From a plasmid: a stretch of 64,000 nucleotides of DNA. Of this stretch, positions 10,268 through 42,000 are shown in pieces. Under the pieces are notes generated by a model that worked only from the letters and a program-made list of their open reading frames with translations, was not told the origin of the DNA and searched no databases. The stretch lies in the sequence record NZ_CP092205.1. One strand, written 5' to 3'. Positions within the stretch are counted from its first letter, which is position 1. Every line of letters starts with the position of its first letter. The translations under genes and the position numbers were made by a program.

Positions 10268-11592
10268 GTACTCAATACAAGCTTTACAAAAAGAAACGTA
10301 TATATGTAACTCACGTTCAATGAATTGGCATAGGATTCTTATATTGCAACACTTTTCCAGTGAAGGTATCAATTACCCCGAGAGCTGCTTTATGAAATAT
10401 AATTCTTACATGTCTATCCGATATATCTTCAAGACCAACTGACTCATCGGCAAGAGAGGAAGAAAGAAAGATGCGATGGCCAGCAAAATAAATATTACCT
10501 AAATCATTCACGGGAGTAACCACTACATTTGTTGGATAATATGCTTCGGGAAGAACGGACGGGAATGTTTTCAGAGATTCTTTATAATACGATTTTGGAA
10601 ACGCATTCTTTAAAGCTTCATGGGGTCTGATGCAATTATATTCGTACTGAAAATCATAGAAAGCCTTTTGTTGTGCTTCTAAAGAAGAACGCGGAGGCAA
10701 CGCTGTTTCTTGTTTCAAAGTTCTGTGCATCCTTTCATGACGGCCATTCTGTTGCGGTTTCCCAGGCTCTATCCGCTCTAATCTAATTCCTAACTTTAAC
10801 CACCAAACGGAAAGTTTTGTTAAGCCTGCAAGACTGAGAGAAGCAAACGGAGAGCCGTTATCAGTCCGAATTGCATCCGGTATCCCATATTGAGTAAACA
10901 GCTTTGTAAAAACTGTAATGACGCTTTCTGTATTTGCTTTGGGAACAATTTCACAACCTAAAAGAAAGCGACTGTATGCGTCGGTGACCGTTAATGGAGT
11001 GCATCTCATTCCGTCACCTACCGTAAAGTGACCTTTGAAATCTGCACACCAAACGTCATTGGGACTTAGAACGTGTGAGAAATGGTAGACTGGCTCCATT
11101 TTCTTTCTTCTCAACTTTACCTTGGTCGTTAAGCCTCTTCGTTTCAAGATTCGCCCAATTGTGCTTACCGAAGGCCAATTTTTAACCTTTGGGAATTTAC
11201 CTTTCAATGAAGCTAAAAGTTTTCGCGCTCCCCAATTCGGATGTCTATCCCGCGCGCTGATAACGAGTTGTACGACATTTTGTTTTGTAGTCTTCGGGTG
11301 GCTTTTGGGAGTCTTTGGTTTATCCTTTAATCCATCGATCCCAAACAACTCATATTGACTTAGGTATTTGTAACCCGTAACTCGGCTGATCCCAAATTCT
11401 TTGCAAAGATCCGTGATGGACCAGCCCCCTTGCTTCCAGGCTACTACAAACTTCATTCTTTCTTGATGCACACAAGTCTCCTTCCAAGGCATTGGGTTTC
11501 CTCCAATGCCAAGATTTTGCAAGAGACATAATCCGTTCAAAAGATTTGTAAAGGATGTAATGAGTTAGTTTTGTAAGCGATGAAATGAGTAC
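10268..11592 (-). mobile_element. IS481-family insertion sequence, complete copy
   Basis: imperfect ~25-bp TIRs gtactcaatacaagctttacaaaa / (rc) gtactcatttcatcgcttacaaaa; bracketed by 27-bp perfect direct repeats ttcataaacgtacccattcatccttta at 10235-10261 and 11598-11624. Confidence 0.7.
10317..11540 (-). CDS. IS481-family DDE transposase (rve integrase core)
   Basis: 407 aa; HTH N-terminus, DVWCADFKGHF...IRTDNGSPF...QQNGRHERMHRTLK integrase core. Confidence 0.85.
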   Translation of the reverse strand: MNGLCLLQNLGIGGNPMPWKETCVHQERMKFVVAWKQGGWSITDLCKEFGISRVTGYKYLSQYELFGIDGLKDKPKTPKSHPKTTKQNVVQLVISARDRHPNWGARKLLASLKGKFPKVKNWPSVSTIGRILKRRGLTTKVKLRRKKMEPVYHFSHVLSPNDVWCADFKGHFTVGDGMRCTPLTVTDAYSRFLLGCEIVPKANTESVITVFTKLFTQYGIPDAIRTDNGSPFASLSLAGLTKLSVWWLKLGIRLERIEPGKPQQNGRHERMHRTLKQETALPPRSSLEAQQKAFYDFQYEYNCIRPHEALKNAFPKSYYKESLKTFPSVLPEAYYPTNVVVTPVNDLGNIYFAGHRIFLSSSLADESVGLEDISDRHVRIIFHKAALGVIDTFTGKVLQYKNPMPIH

Positions 11593-12140
11593 TTACCTTC
11601 ATAAACGTACCCATTCATCCTTTAGCGCATCGGTAACACTCTATACCGGAAACATGAGTTACACTTTATTCGTTGTAGTTGTACACAGGTGTTTCGTATT
11701 TCAATACTTTTCCTGTAAATAAATCTTACACAAACGCAATCGAATCTATGAATATGGGCCTGAGGAAAATTATCAAGAATCGAGATTCGTTGCCCAACGA
11801 TAAAGCCGCAGTCAAATTTTTATTTGGCTTTGAATAATATGTCCAAAAAATGGGCTATGCCCATTCAAGATTGGGATGACGAGCGATCCTTAGAGCGAGT
11901 CGCTGAGTTCAAGCGATGAATCAGTTTTCGATTCTTTTCGGAGAGTTACTGAGATTAGATTCGTTTTAAAGTATGTCATTTATACAATATTGCTGACACT
12001 TCAAAGATTGCGGGAACTCCTCTCACAATCTTTGAAAAAATCCGTCGCTATTTGCACTTATTTTTGTAATGAGCAAATTAAACGAAAGAACTTCGTCTAC
12101 AAAGAATACGGGCAATACCTGCCACTCTAATTACACGCGT

Positions 12141-12350
12141 CTATTTTTTACTTAGAATGTCTGAGTCTCGAAGATCTTGCTCCGTGAGGCCTGTGATTTC
12201 CAGGATAGTCTTTAGATCGATCCCTTTTTGAAGCATTTTACCGGCTGTTTCTAGTTTCCCTTTTTCAATACCCTTCTCGATACCCTGGCGCATCCCTTCA
12301 GAAATGAGCCTTTCCGCGGTTGTCATCGTCAATTCCTCATATTGTTCCAA
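12141..12350 (-). CDS. standalone duplicate of Rpn C-terminal domain (RpnS-like small protein)
   Basis: 69 aa, ~75% identical to the last ~75 aa of the upstream Rpn protein ([51 protein letters not shown]); lies in a diverged ~250-bp tandem repeat of the gene's 3' end. Confidence 0.55.
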
Positions 12351-12362
12351 TTTAGATCTGCT

Positions 12363-38730: not shown

Positions 38731-39000
38731 TTAAAATGGATGACTTGTATCACAATCATTCACACAGGTTTGCTTTGCATCAACGCAAAACAAAGGATTA
38801 TAGAATATGGAAAGAATTGGATTTTGACTTGTGCTTGTCTGCGGATTACTGTCCAACAAAGTCTTAAGCAATTCTGCACCCATCAAGCAATCCATGACAG
38901 CAGTGTTGCATGAATTATCCAGGTAGCATTTGTGCCTTGGTGAAATGTATTCACTGCAACTAATTCCAAATAACAAACTCAAAATTAGAATTCTCTTCAT
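38731..39000 (-). CDS. copy 2 of 89-aa Cys-rich lipoprotein, immediately downstream of the intact rhs 3' end
   Basis: identical to 24683-24952; 72-nt gap to rhs stop. Confidence 0.45.
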   Translation of the reverse strand: MKRILILSLLFGISCSEYISPRHKCYLDNSCNTAVMDCLMGAELLKTLLDSNPQTSTSQNPILSIFYNPLFCVDAKQTCVNDCDTSHPF

Positions 39001-39072
39001 TACTCTCTCGGCTCCCTATATATACTTTTGAAAAAGATATATTAAAAATTTAAATTTTTCCAGAAACAATAA

Positions 39073-42000
39073 TTAGCGTGATCCAAAACATTCATTCGAC
39101 CCGTAAACCGCATCTACACTATAATAAATTCCCGCAATCTCAGATGCCTCAAAAGCTTCAGCTAACGAGAAAACGACCCCCTCGCCAGTAGCCAAAGCAA
39201 AAAGTGATATCGCTACAGATGCACAACCTGCAATTCTTTTTCTTTCTTCGTCTCTTTTGCTGTGCCGATGGAGGAACTCCCTACCTTGCTTATCGCTATG
39301 TCTAAAAATATCTCTCCAATGATGATCCACCATTCGCAATAATTTTCTAACCGTATGATCATTTTTTCGCAATTGTTTCTTAGTTTTATGCTTAACGTTA
39401 TGATTCAGTTTATGAGCATTCCTTAAAATTGCTCTTCCGCCATGGTCCACTCTCTCTTGCAATTCTTGAAAACTATTATTGACAGAATGGATAGTTTTTT
39501 TTAGTTGTTCGTTAAATTTATGAACTATTACTTCTGTTCCAGTTTTCCTTGTAAATGGCCATCTTGTATGACTACTAAGCCAAGAATACCCTGTCGAGTC
39601 TATTCGATCAATCGGATTTCCGCCAACATACATGTATCCATTCGTCCCATCTATTCCTTGATCAACGATCGAATCCGCTTGCAAGAACCTTCCTAACATC
39701 GGTTCGTAATATCTTGCTTTGTAATAATAAAGTCCAGTGTCCTTGTCTTCAATTTGGCCCGTAAACTTGTAACGGAATATATCCGGACCATAAGAATCGT
39801 TTCGTACAATCGATCCATACGGCTCATAGGAAACATAGCTCACTCCAGGTTCCGGTCCCGAAGCTGGATTACCAGCTCCATCAGTGATCATTTGAACCGA
39901 CCCAAGATGATCCGGATGATAAAAATACATTCCTGTCACCGGCATTCCTCCCACACTTCCACCGTCTGAAATTCCTACTCCGGGATTCTGAATACTTGTC
40001 ACGCTGGGATTTAAGTTCGCTCCCATTGCAAGGATCCAAGGCGGATCTCCTTCTTTGCCGACCGTCCCCGGCAATATACCGCATCCAGGTAAAGATGTTA
40101 CTACAAAAAGGGACAAGATCAACGCGGGAGTTCCCACAGCCTTCCAACTCAGTCTTTGAAGTAACTCGTTCCCTCGGAGAAAATAAGGGTACGATAAATA
40201 ACAAACTCCTAATAAGAGCAAGAAATAAAACGCGTTGTAAGACCCGGTTGGGGCACCCTTTTGAAAGTATTTAGAATATCCGAATATGGAAATAAACTCA
40301 GATTGAACCCGATTTTTGTAATACGTCCCACAATCGTCCACTATATCCTTGCAAAACGGATTTGTCAGAGGTCCCACAATTCTTCCGACAAACAATCCAA
40401 ACGAATTCTCGCTTGACTCGATCGTGTTGCTTGCTTCCGCCAACTGCAATGTCGCGTCTCCCCTCGTCCACTGCGCCACAAGATCACCCTGCAGGCCTCT
40501 CACATACAAAGTATGCTGCTCGGGTTGGCCCGGGTTCCTTACGATCTCATAATTTTCACCTAACATATATGTTGAAATCAAGGAAATATCCGAAACTGAC
40601 TTTACACGGTTCCCTTGAAAGTCGTACGTATTTCGAATCGAACCGCTCGTTGCATAGGGTGTAATTTCAATTAGTTTTCCATAACTGTCGTAACGAAGCG
40701 TATCTCCGTTTCTCGAAACCATGTTCCCACTTGCGTCATATCCGTAATTGAATGTTCCCGTGCTTGGACTAGTCGCGGTAGTAACCGCATTTGCGTGAGT
40801 TCCATCACCGTAAGCTAAAGTATATGCGCCTTTTTGAATCAAGTTTCCATTAGTTGAAAAAACATAGTCTTGGATGCCGTATTTTCCAATTGCCTGCACC
40901 ACCCTTCCTAAATTGTCCAAAGTAAAGTTTTGAGTTCTCATCGGGTTCAACTTGTCTTCAATTTTCGTTATATGTCCCTTCGCGTCATACGTGTATTCCG
41001 CGTTCCCGATCACATTCCCATCCGGTTTTTTAGAAAGAATCGTTAAAGGCTTCTTGTCCAAAGGTTCAAAACCGATTTCCATAGTAACACCGTTTCCGGT
41101 CGTTCTTCGTAGAGACAGAACTCCATCCGCATTCAAGTAAGGTCCTTGGTAGCTGACTATCGTATGCCCTACACTCGTTCCATCCGCGTTGTCCATCGTG
41201 ATACTCGACAACGTTCCATTCGGGGAATAGAAATTGTGAGTTTTGGTTCCATCCGGATACGTTTGAGTTACCGGTCTTCCCAGGGAGTCATAGTCCGTTT
41301 TGAAAATCGCAATCACATCATCGATATATTTCTTTGTCTGTGTCACTTCCCCTTTTTGGCTGTATCGATATTCCGTTTTTCCCGAGCCGTCCGTTATCTG
41401 CGTTACGCGACCCTTGGAATACGGCACGCTTCCGTCGTCATATACATACGCAACCGGTGCTTCCGGTCCATTCGTGCTTTGAGTCAAAACTCTTCCAAGC
41501 GTATCATACGTAAAGTTGACTTGCTTTCCTCTTGCGTCCGTCTGGCTCGTAACCCTACCGACTCCGTCGTATCCGAACGTAATTGTTCCCGAATTCGGAT
41601 CTTGTGTGGAAACTTTTCTTCCTAAAGAATTGTAAGAAAAGCTCGTTATAAGCCCGCTCGGATCCGTGACACTCGCAACTCCTCCAAATGGAGAGTAAGA
41701 ATAGGATACGGTTCTACCTTGAGTCGTCCTGCTTGTCACTTGTCCGAGTTCATTTTTGGCCTCATTCTCGGTCGTAACCTGTCCGTCCGGATACGTGACC
41801 GTTTTTGTTTCCGTAAATCCAGATCGTGTAATTGTAGTTAGGATGGTCCCGTTTAAGCTCGGTTCTACGAAGGAACTCAAAACTCTATCCGGATTAGTAT
41901 ATTGATACGTAGTATATTGAGGACTCTCTACGCTGTAATACGAATTGGATTTTCGAATCAACTGTCCGGTCGTATAATCAAAATTACTTTCCTCGATCTG

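What the first reader, a model, noticed from the sequence alone, without database searches (positions are those of the whole stretch)
11150..39250. Near-perfect 14-kb tandem duplication whose junction fuses the rhs 3' tip to the interior of an IS481 transposase gene
All ORFs from 11152 to 25198 recur at +14048/+14049. The only difference I can see is a one-base homopolymer change, C5 at 11424-11428 against C4 at 25473-25476. The junction at 25199-25202 is the tetranucleotide TTCG. That tetranucleotide is present both at the rhs tip (39247-39250) and inside the IS481 transposase gene (11150-11153), which points to microhomology-mediated illegitimate recombination rather than transposition. The duplicated unit carries the orphan rhs-CT and immunity cassettes, the Rpn locus and the AraC/GNAT locus, so their dosage is doubled. 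A duplication this recent and this large is either an unstable amplification, possibly selected for toxin/immunity dosage, or an assembly artefact. Either alternative matters for interpretation.
Basis: seen in the sequence. Interest (0 to 1): 0.75.

Follow-up and report, generated by a model that had tools for sequence, protein, structure and literature searches.

The report
Probable assembly-made 14-kb tandem repeat
The 14-kb tandem repeat is really in this Leptospira weilii plasmid sequence, but it is most likely two overlapping ends of long-read contigs joined head to tail, not a biological gene amplification.

Summary
Window 11150-25198 recurs at 25199-39246. The junction is a 4-nt TTCG overlap. 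The only difference is C5 (11424-28) against C4 (25473-76).

The window comes from a 133,952-bp plasmid of L. weilii, almost certainly strain FMAS_PD2. That genome was made from PacBio CLR reads (N50 about 9 kb) with Canu 2.1 defaults and Circlator, and no polishing is reported.

I favour assembly redundancy (about 0.72), for five reasons:
- Records from the same project carry three more such repeats (14,957, 15,243 and 16,866 bp), one of them in another species at an unrelated locus.
- Copies never differ by substitutions, only by short indels. 6 of 14 indels lie within 310 nt of a junction (P about 4e-7).
- One breakpoint lies 452 nt inside an 11.6-kb stretch that is identical between two plasmids of the strain.
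- Protein accessions show a third copy of the unit just left of the window.
- The sister strain's homologous plasmid has one copy.

A real microhomology-mediated duplication is not excluded (about 0.2). The TTCG overlap has a chance probability of about 0.02. The dosage-selection idea is weak because the main rhs gene is split by an IS5 element. Only read mapping or junction PCR can settle the question.

The parts
11150..25198 (.). Copy 1 of the repeated unit (14,049 nt). It is attached on its left to a complete IS481 and the 10-kb 'flank A'.
   Evidence: Exact self-identity.
25199..39246 (.). Copy 2 of the repeated unit (14,048 nt). It starts inside IS481 and runs on into the rhs body.
25199..25202 (.). 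Junction tetranucleotide TTCG, shared by both parental breakpoints (11150-11153 and 39247-39250).
   Evidence: Chance of >=4 nt of microhomology = 0.022.
25473..25476 (.). C4 run, 274 nt from the junction. It is the only difference from copy 1 (C5 at 11424-11428). It frameshifts the truncated transposase copy and is aberrant relative to all other IS481 copies examined.
   Evidence: Copy 1 is 100% identical to L011-L013 and L015; copy 2 is 99.78%.
10239..11602 (-). Complete IS481-family element. The transposase is 10317-11492 (391 aa from ATG). The terminal inverted repeats lie around 10251-10290 and 11545-11584.
   Evidence: The identical 391-aa protein is found at 7 or more places in strain FMAS_RT1.
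25199..25650 (-). Truncated IS481 copy: the IS end plus the first ~130 transposase codons.
25110..25577 (-). 155-aa ORF across the junction. It equals GenBank ULH30929.1 / WP_239248401.1 of a 133,952-bp L. weilii plasmid and identifies the source record.
25025..25198 (-). Detached rhs 3' tip (last 58 codons plus the stop) at the end of copy 1.
39073..43446 (-). C-terminal part of the RHS-repeat / YD-shell toxin gene (1457-aa ORF). Its last 178 nt belong to copy 2.
   Evidence: Pfam RHS_repeat. It is 97.8% identical to intact 2307-aa genes with SpvB/FG-GAP/RHS/TEN_YD-shell domains in L001-L007.
43449..44320 (.). IS5-family insertion that splits the rhs gene. The N-terminal part is ORF 44288-46798.
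   Evidence: The relatives are contiguous across this point. The insert is 99.5% identical to an IS5 copy of pLiSL17. Target duplication TTAG/TAG and inverted repeats GAACCGGTCTCAAAAC.
12363..13325 (-). Rpn-family nuclease gene. The second copy is at 26411-27373.
   Evidence: Pfam Transposase_31 at 1.9e-62; TIGR01784.
13574..17370 (.). Accessory genes: LIC10906-family 7TM protein, LBL_2463-family protein, a 136-aa HTH protein and two AraC-type regulators.
17530..21134 (.). Kelch-repeat gene (17530-17985 and 20223-21134, minus strand) interrupted by an IS66 element (18007-20336, plus strand).
21204..23381 (-). Two orphan rhs C-terminal cassettes with remnants of the rhs core end, plus a 189-aa ORF between them.
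23656..24952 (-). Bor-like lipoprotein gene and an LA_0364-family Cys-rich lipoprotein gene. The latter sits directly downstream of rhs.
1..11602 (.). Flank A plus IS481. It is identical to plasmid pLiSL17 (CP092204.1, 146183 down to ~134581) of the same strain except for one homopolymer indel: A6 at 36-41 against A7 in four other copies.

Best explanation
The repeat is most likely redundancy created when the plasmid record was built, not a duplication in the cell.

The source is a PacBio CLR assembly made with Canu 2.1 and Circlator. Canu contigs of circular replicons, and contigs that break at repeats, overlap each other by about a long-read length. On this reading a contig that began 452 nt inside the multi-copy IS481 and ran rightward through the unit into rhs (copy 2 onward) was joined head to tail to sequence that ended in the rhs tip (copy 1). 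The 14,049 nt of overlap were therefore written twice. A short contig (flank A, IS481, copy 1) and a third copy just left of the window belong to the same tangle. The underlying plasmid would then be about 94-95 kb with one unit, like the 93.5-kb homologue in the sister strain.

Shown here:
- the repeat, its junction and its single indel;
- the recurrence of such repeats in records from the same project;
- the clustering of indels next to junctions;
- the third copy, through protein accessions.

Inferred:
- that the junctions are contig ends;
- which pipeline or manual step joined them.
For: 1. Source and method. The junction ORF equals ULH30929.1 on a 133,952-bp L. weilii plasmid. The left flank is identical to pLiSL17 of strain FMAS_PD2. 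The FMAS genomes were made from PacBio CLR reads with N50 about 9 kb, >=600x depth, Canu 2.1 defaults and Circlator, and no polishing is described (PMC10696454). [quoted passage not shown]

2. Recurrence.
- pLiSL17 has two adjacent tandem repeats, 84435-101300|101301-118166 (16.9 kb) and 104157-119399|119400-134645 (15.2 kb).
- L. interrogans FMAS_KG1 pLiSL34 has 20247-35203|35204-50161 (14,957 bp) at an unrelated par-region locus. That record also carries two replicon types.
- All four units are 14.0-16.9 kb.

3. Error pattern.
- All differences between copies are short indels. There are no substitutions in about 108 kb of repeated sequence.
- 6 of 14 indels lie within 310 nt of a junction, where 2.3% would be expected (P = 3.7e-7).
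- Where an outside reference exists, the aberrant allele is in the junction-adjacent copy. For pLiSL34 the intact conserved protein WP_001290193.1 is annotated only in copy 2.
- The middle copy of pLiSL17, bounded by both junctions, carries about 8-10 errors against 1 in each outer copy.

4. Breakpoints sit in repeats.
- The start of copy 2 is 452 nt inside an 11.6-kb stretch that is 100% identical between two plasmids of the strain.
- pLiSL17 junction B is about 60 nt inside the same IS481.
- pLiSL17 junction A is in the repeated Rpn C-domain start motif.

5. Third copy. Kelch, orphan-CT, 150-aa and Bor-like proteins each have three accessions on this plasmid (ULH30900-03, 30925-28, 30939-42), but the junction ORF has one. 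The only error in the window's 11.6-kb flank A is at 36-41, at the window edge next to that inferred junction.

6. Homologous loci in strain FMAS_RT1 (CP092210, CP092208) and seven other Leptospira assemblies show one copy in the order rhs, modules, Rpn, then IS481 in CP092210 and CP092208.
Against: - The 4-nt TTCG microhomology is expected in only about 2% of random joins and is typical of real illegitimate recombination. Across the four junctions examined (4, 0, 1 and 0-1 nt) one such value is not extraordinary, at about 8%.
- Copy 1 shows no error in its last 13.7 kb before the junction.
- The C-run involved is one of only three G/C runs of >=5 nt in the unit. The window's own single error therefore says little by position.
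- No reads, depth data or assembly graph could be examined.
- The record outside the window could not be read, so the third copy rests on accession numbering alone.
- I could not identify the exact step that would place contig ends inside a record.
- The single-copy relatives that are short-read drafts would collapse a duplication anyway.
Confidence: 0.72

Rival explanations
1. A genuine, very recent tandem duplication, present in most cells. RecA-independent illegitimate recombination or template switching between sister plasmid copies, using the TTCG microhomology, joined the rhs 3' tip to the interior of IS481. This doubled a 14-kb block of orphan toxin cassettes, regulators and Rpn.
For: - Head-to-tail copies with one novel junction and 4-nt microhomology. 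P = 0.022 by chance.
- Zero substitutions, which fits a very recent event.
- A -1 frameshift in a homopolymer 274 nt from the junction could be a by-product of error-prone repair synthesis.
- Similar arrays next to Rpn genes in pLiSL17 and pLiSL34 could mean a locus-specific tendency to rearrange.
Against: - It would need at least four independent fixed duplications of nearly the same size (14-17 kb) in three records of one sequencing project, one of them at an unrelated locus, while homologous plasmids of the sister strain have none.
- Three indels within 60 nt of pLiSL17 junction B, and an error-laden middle copy, look like low-coverage consensus rather than mutation.
- The other junctions have 0-1 nt of microhomology.
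- A 14-kb perfect direct repeat is expected to be lost quickly by homologous recombination (general knowledge of duplication instability).
- The main rhs gene is already inactivated by IS5, so selection for toxin dosage is unlikely.
Confidence: 0.18
2. A real but minority structure. The culture holds a mixture of plasmid isoforms, and Canu threaded low-frequency paths into the consensus record. Possible isoforms are IS481-mediated cointegrates with pLiSL17-type plasmids, a rare tandem duplication, or an excised 14-kb circle carrying the same junction.
For: - Flank A is bracketed by IS481 copies and occurs in both orientations in pLiSL16 and in FMAS_RT1 CP092208. This fits ongoing IS481-mediated rearrangement.
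- At very high depth (>=600x), minority junctions have enough reads to be assembled.
- Poor consensus next to the junctions fits low read support.
- The TTCG microhomology fits a real recombination event.
Against: - There is no direct evidence of heterogeneity.
- The pLiSL34 repeat does not involve IS481.
- Read-length-sized units are explained more simply by overlapping contigs.
Confidence: 0.1

Closest known systems
Start/end or contig-overlap redundancy in Canu assemblies of circular replicons (Wick & Holt benchmark, PMC6966772)
   Same: - The duplicated length is thousands of bases, on the scale of read length.
- Canu v2.1 is the assembler used.
- The copies are independent consensus sequences that differ only by indels.
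- The effect recurs across records from one pipeline.
   Different: - The repeat here is internal to the record rather than at its two ends.
- At least three copies and an intervening 11.6-kb segment are involved.
- A rotation, merge or manual joining step therefore has to be assumed, and I could not identify it.
RecA-independent, microhomology-mediated tandem duplication and amplification in bacteria (from general knowledge, e.g. the work reviewed by Reams and Roth)
   Same: Head-to-tail identical copies, a single novel junction, 4 nt of microhomology and no IS terminus at the junction.
   Different: - Read support and doubled depth, which define a real event, are untested.
- The indel pattern and the recurrence across records are not expected for such events.
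Rearrangement between a main rhs gene and orphan rhs-CT cassettes (from general knowledge, e.g. Salmonella orphan Rhs toxin studies)
   Same: A main rhs gene followed by orphan C-terminal cassettes that retain pieces of the core end.
   Different: Those events use homologous recombination between the repeated core sequences. Here the breakpoints lie in the toxin tip and in an IS481 gene and share only 4 nt.
IS-mediated tandem amplification (composite-transposon or translocatable-unit type)
   Same: An IS lies at the edge of the repeated unit.
   Different: The junction is 452 nt inside the IS. The inner IS copy is truncated. There is no target-site duplication or IS terminus at the junction.

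Membership tests
Assembly overlap redundancy (Canu contig ends) | Repeat length on the scale of the long reads used | tested here: met
   The unit is 14,049 nt. Sister cases are 14,957, 15,243 and 16,866 nt. Read N50 is about 9 kb, and the stated statistics put a large class of reads at >=12.5 kb. Canu overlap scales with read N50.
Assembly overlap redundancy (Canu contig ends) | Copies differ only by consensus-type indels, concentrated at the joined ends | tested here: met
   There are 0 substitutions. 6 of 14 indels lie within 310 nt of a junction, P = 3.7e-7. In the window alone there is one indel, 274 nt from the junction, which is weak evidence by itself.
Assembly overlap redundancy (Canu contig ends) | Recurrence in other records of the same pipeline at unrelated loci | tested here: met
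   pLiSL17 has two. L. interrogans pLiSL34 has one at a ParA locus.
Assembly overlap redundancy (Canu contig ends) | No reads span the junction; depth of the unit equals the flanks | not testable with these tools
Microhomology-mediated (RecA-independent) tandem duplication | Head-to-tail identical copies with one novel junction carrying short microhomology | tested here: met
   TTCG, P = 0.022 by chance.
Microhomology-mediated (RecA-independent) tandem duplication | The junction is present in the DNA of the organism (spanning reads, PCR, doubled depth) | not testable with these tools
   The junction 48-mer is absent from the GTDB representative genomes. The junction ORF is found only in this one record.
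IS-mediated amplification / transposition | Junction at an IS terminus, with full IS copies bracketing the unit | tested here: not met
   The junction is 452 nt inside IS481, and the inner copy is truncated.
Homologous unequal crossing-over (e.g. rhs core against orphan core) | Extended sequence homology at the two parental breakpoints | tested here: not met
   Identity stops immediately outside TTCG on both sides.

The most novel reading that the evidence does not exclude
The duplication is real. Together with the arrays in pLiSL17 and pLiSL34 it would reflect a recurrent, homology-independent amplification process acting on toxin and regulator modules of Leptospira phage-plasmids that each carry an Rpn-family 'recombination-promoting' nuclease gene. 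The frameshift errors near the junctions would then be scars of error-prone repair synthesis.
Probability: 0.07. Interest if true: 0.6.

Novelty: not a real feature. Interest (0 to 1): 0.12.

Why it matters
If the repeat is assembly redundancy, the practical consequences are:
- The deposited 'complete' plasmids of this Leptospira project overstate plasmid size and gene copy number. This record would be about 134 kb against a likely 94-95 kb.
- They contain artificial fusion ORFs, such as the annotated 155-aa ULH30929.1.
- They would mislead comparative studies of toxin/immunity dosage, IS activity and plasmid structure.

If the repeat were real, it would be an ordinary recent microhomology duplication on a plasmid. 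That has some interest for the dynamics of polymorphic-toxin loci in Leptospira but would not be surprising.

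Tried and rejected
- Exact look-ups of contigs encoding the junction ORF, the Rpn protein and the Kelch fragment found nothing on record. The source record and its sequence outside the window could therefore not be read.
- The junction 48-mer is absent from GTDB representative genomes.
- The second member of the junction-ORF protein cluster (P0011) is not the junction. 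It is another frameshifted IS481 copy in an unrelated assembly.
- CP092202, CP092203 and CP092205 are not in the plasmid collection.
- No outside reference could be found for the pLiSL34 junction region. Annotation was used instead.
- Transposition, IS-bracketed amplification and homologous crossing-over between rhs core repeats were considered and rejected on junction anatomy.
- I considered whether Circlator's start-fixing step had moved untrimmed contig ends to the middle of the record. I could not support this. Accession numbering suggests the window is record 64001-128000, which puts the junction near 89 kb rather than at the midpoint. The pLiSL34 junction is at 35 kb of 140 kb.
- The size arithmetic (133,952 minus redundant parts is about 94 kb, close to the 93.5-kb homologue) does not discriminate between a real and an artefactual repeat.
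- I did not scan the metagenome collection, because isolate-specific junctions are not expected there.

Full report
**1. The observation**

A shift comparison of the window against itself gives two exact runs: 11150-11428 = 25199-25477 (offset 14049) and 11426-25202 = 25474-39250 (offset 14048). There are no substitutions. The only difference is a C5 run at 11424-11428 against C4 at 25473-25476.

The tetranucleotide TTCG is present at the left breakpoint (11150-11153), at the junction (25199-25202) and at the right breakpoint (39247-39250). Identity ends immediately outside it on both sides. For random breakpoint pairs in this window, the chance of 4 or more nt of such microhomology is 0.022.

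**2. What the sequence encodes**

All the relevant genes read on the minus strand, in this order:
- A large RHS-repeat gene. Intact relatives encode 2307 aa with SpvB, FG-GAP, RHS and YD-shell domains.
- The repeated unit, which contains:
  - the last 59 rhs codons;
  - an LA_0364-family Cys-rich lipoprotein gene;
  - a Bor-like gene;
  - two orphan rhs C-terminal cassettes that keep pieces of the rhs core end;
  - a Kelch-repeat gene split by an IS66 element;
  - two AraC-type regulators;
  - a small HTH protein;
  - an LBL_2463-family protein;
  - an LIC10906-family 7TM protein;
  - an Rpn-family nuclease;
  - the first ~130 codons of an IS481-family transposase.

The C5 version gives the normal transposase N-terminus. 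C4 frameshifts it. Every other copy of this IS that I could compare matches the C5 copy.

In this window the main rhs gene is itself broken by an IS5-family element at 43449-44320, with a target duplication. That weakens any argument for selection on toxin dosage.

**3. Where the window comes from**

- The 155-aa ORF across the junction is GenBank ULH30929.1 / WP_239248401.1, annotated on a 133,952-bp plasmid of Leptospira weilii.
- Window 1-11602 is identical, apart from one homopolymer indel, to plasmid pLiSL17 (CP092204.1) of strain FMAS_PD2.
- The FMAS genomes were sequenced with PacBio CLR (read N50 about 9 kb, at least 600x), assembled with Canu 2.1 defaults and circularised with Circlator. 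No polishing is described (PMC10696454).

**4. Single-copy relatives**

- Seven other Leptospira assemblies (97.6-98.0% identical over the rhs-side block and 97.7-99.8% over the other shared blocks of the unit) show one copy in the order rhs, lipoprotein, orphan cassettes, AraC genes, 7TM gene, Rpn.
- The sister strain FMAS_RT1 has a 93,461-bp phage-plasmid (CP092210). It carries rhs, the modules, Rpn and IS481 once, and it has no long identical repeats.
- The rhs array of FMAS_RT1 plasmid CP092208 is also single-copy.

**5. The same kind of repeat elsewhere in the project**

- pLiSL17 of FMAS_PD2 has two adjacent tandem repeats, 84435-101300|101301-118166 and 104157-119399|119400-134645, which give three copies.
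- L. interrogans FMAS_KG1 plasmid pLiSL34 has 20247-35203|35204-50161 (14,957 bp). It cuts a ParA gene at a locus that has nothing to do with rhs tips or IS481.
- The four units measure 14.0, 15.0, 15.2 and 16.9 kb.
- Plasmid pLiSL16 of FMAS_PD2 is largely built from inverted and direct repeats of the same flank A / IS481 region.

**6. The error pattern**

In about 108 kb of repeated sequence the copies never differ by a substitution. They differ only by 1-2-nt indels. These indels cluster at the junctions:

| Record | Position of indel relative to the junction |
|---|---|
| pLiSL17, first junction | 40 nt after and 309 nt before |
| pLiSL17, second junction | 31 nt and 58 nt before (including A6 for A4) |
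| pLiSL34 | 164 nt and 660 nt before |
| Window | 274 nt after |

Six of 14 events lie within 310 nt of a junction, where 2.3% would be expected (P = 3.7e-7).

Where a reference exists, the aberrant allele is in the junction-adjacent copy. For pLiSL34, the conserved protein WP_001290193.1 is annotated only in copy 2. The middle copy of pLiSL17, which is bounded by both junctions, holds about 8-10 errors against one in each outer copy.

This is what independent low-coverage consensus at contig ends looks like. It is not expected for a real repeat sequenced at several hundred-fold depth.

**7. Position of the breakpoints**

- The start of copy 2 lies 452 nt inside a stretch (flank A plus IS481) that is 100% identical between two plasmids of the strain. 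It also lies inside an IS that is present at many places in the genome.
- The second junction of pLiSL17 lies about 60 nt inside the same IS.
- The first junction of pLiSL17 lies in the start motif of the repeated Rpn C-terminal domain.

Contigs anchored in unique sequence are expected to end just inside such repeats. The other breakpoint would then lie about one long read away.

**8. A third copy**

The Kelch, orphan-cassette, 150-aa and Bor-like proteins each have three GenBank accessions on this plasmid (ULH30900-03, 30925-28, 30939-42). The 136-aa and AraC proteins show the same spacing. The junction ORF has one accession.

The numbering places a further copy of the unit directly left of the window, separated from copy 1 by flank A and IS481. 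The only error in the window's 11.6 kb of flank A is an A6-for-A7 at 36-41, at that edge.

This part is inference from accession order, which is not perfectly positional. The LBL_2463 proteins, for example, carry out-of-order numbers.

**9. Explanation**

The most economical reading is that the record strings together overlapping pieces:
- a main contig that starts inside IS481 at 25199 and whose other end runs through the unit again;
- a short contig carrying flank A, IS481 and the unit.

Removing the redundancy leaves about 94-95 kb, close to the 93.5-kb homologue. That arithmetic would hold for a real duplication too, so it does not discriminate. I give this reading a probability of about 0.72.

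A real, fixed, microhomology-mediated duplication (about 0.18) is supported mainly by the TTCG overlap. A minority isoform in a mixed plasmid population (about 0.10) would also explain the poor consensus at the junctions. Transposition, IS-bracketed amplification and homologous crossing-over between rhs core repeats are excluded by the junction anatomy.

**10. Limits**

I had no reads, no depth data and no access to the record outside the window. I could not name the pipeline or manual step that would place contig ends inside a record, and the positions do not fit a simple rotation to the midpoint. The window's own indel is weak evidence, because its C-run is one of only three G/C runs of 5 or more nt in the unit. 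Read mapping across 25198/25199 and a junction PCR would settle the matter.

**11. Verdict**

As biology this is most probably not a real feature. Its value is as a caution about these deposited plasmid records.

Noticed in passing
window 43449-44320: An IS5-family element is inserted in the main rhs gene. The target duplication is TTAG/TAG and the inverted repeats are GAACCGGTCTCAAAAC. It is 99.5% identical to an IS5 copy on pLiSL17. It splits the gene into ORFs 44288-46798 and 39073-43446.
   Followed up: yes
window 17530-21134 (and 31578-35182): A Kelch-repeat gene is interrupted by an IS66 element with TnpA, TnpB and TnpC ORFs at 18007-20336. This 4.3-kb block is absent from the otherwise collinear relatives L001-L005. 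I did not determine the IS66 ends or the target duplication.
   Followed up: partly
window 12141-12350 (minus strand), next to Rpn 12363-13325: A 69-aa ORF repeats the C-terminal domain of the adjacent Rpn nuclease ([19 protein letters not shown]...). It resembles the small C-domain proteins described for E. coli Rpn loci (recalled from memory, not tested here). Related plasmids carry two such small ORFs after Rpn.
   Followed up: no
window 36-41: An A6 run where four other copies of this segment (pLiSL16 twice, pLiSL17, FMAS_RT1 CP092208) have A7. It is the only difference in 11.6 kb shared with pLiSL17. It sits at the window edge, next to where accession numbering places another junction.
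   Followed up: partly
outside the window, left of position 1 (same 133,952-bp record): Protein accessions indicate a third copy of the unit, covering at least the 7TM gene through the Bor-like gene (ULH30893-30903). It lies immediately upstream of flank A. Its junction could not be read.
   Followed up: partly
L017/L018 (CP092204.1 84435-134645): pLiSL17 of the same strain holds three copies of a 15-17-kb rhs module joined at two non-homologous junctions. The middle copy carries most of the indel errors.
   Followed up: yes
L024/L025 (CP092671.1 20247-50161): L. interrogans FMAS_KG1 plasmid pLiSL34 has a 14,957-bp perfect tandem repeat that truncates a ParA gene. The record carries two replicon clusters and is 56 kb larger than its ~84-kb relatives, which suggests joined contigs.
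   Followed up: partly
L023 (CP092201.1): pLiSL16 (57.9 kb) consists largely of a 12.5-kb inverted repeat and a direct repeat of more than 7 kb of the flank A / IS481 region. It may be a redundant or isomer contig rather than a separate plasmid.
   Followed up: partly
window 48074-49246: A second, different IS481-family transposase gene (390 aa) lies between the rhs upstream region and the Kelch/TPR genes. It is 99.6% identical to a chromosomal copy in FMAS_RT1 (L011 7317-8594).
   Followed up: no
L019 / L020 (JQPS01000284.1, SRR1542509): An independent Leptospira assembly has an IS481 copy frameshifted at the same G/C run, giving an ORF in the same alternative upstream frame (P0011). The run may therefore be a natural slippage hot spot as well as a sequencing-error hot spot.
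   Followed up: partly
L026 24331-36282 and L021 35874-47825: FMAS_RT1 plasmids CP092209 and CP092210 share about 12 kb of genes encoding identical proteins (IS481, restriction endonuclease, reverse transcriptase through to portal). Inter-plasmid repeats anchored at IS481 are therefore common in these genomes, or these assemblies are also partly redundant.
   Followed up: no
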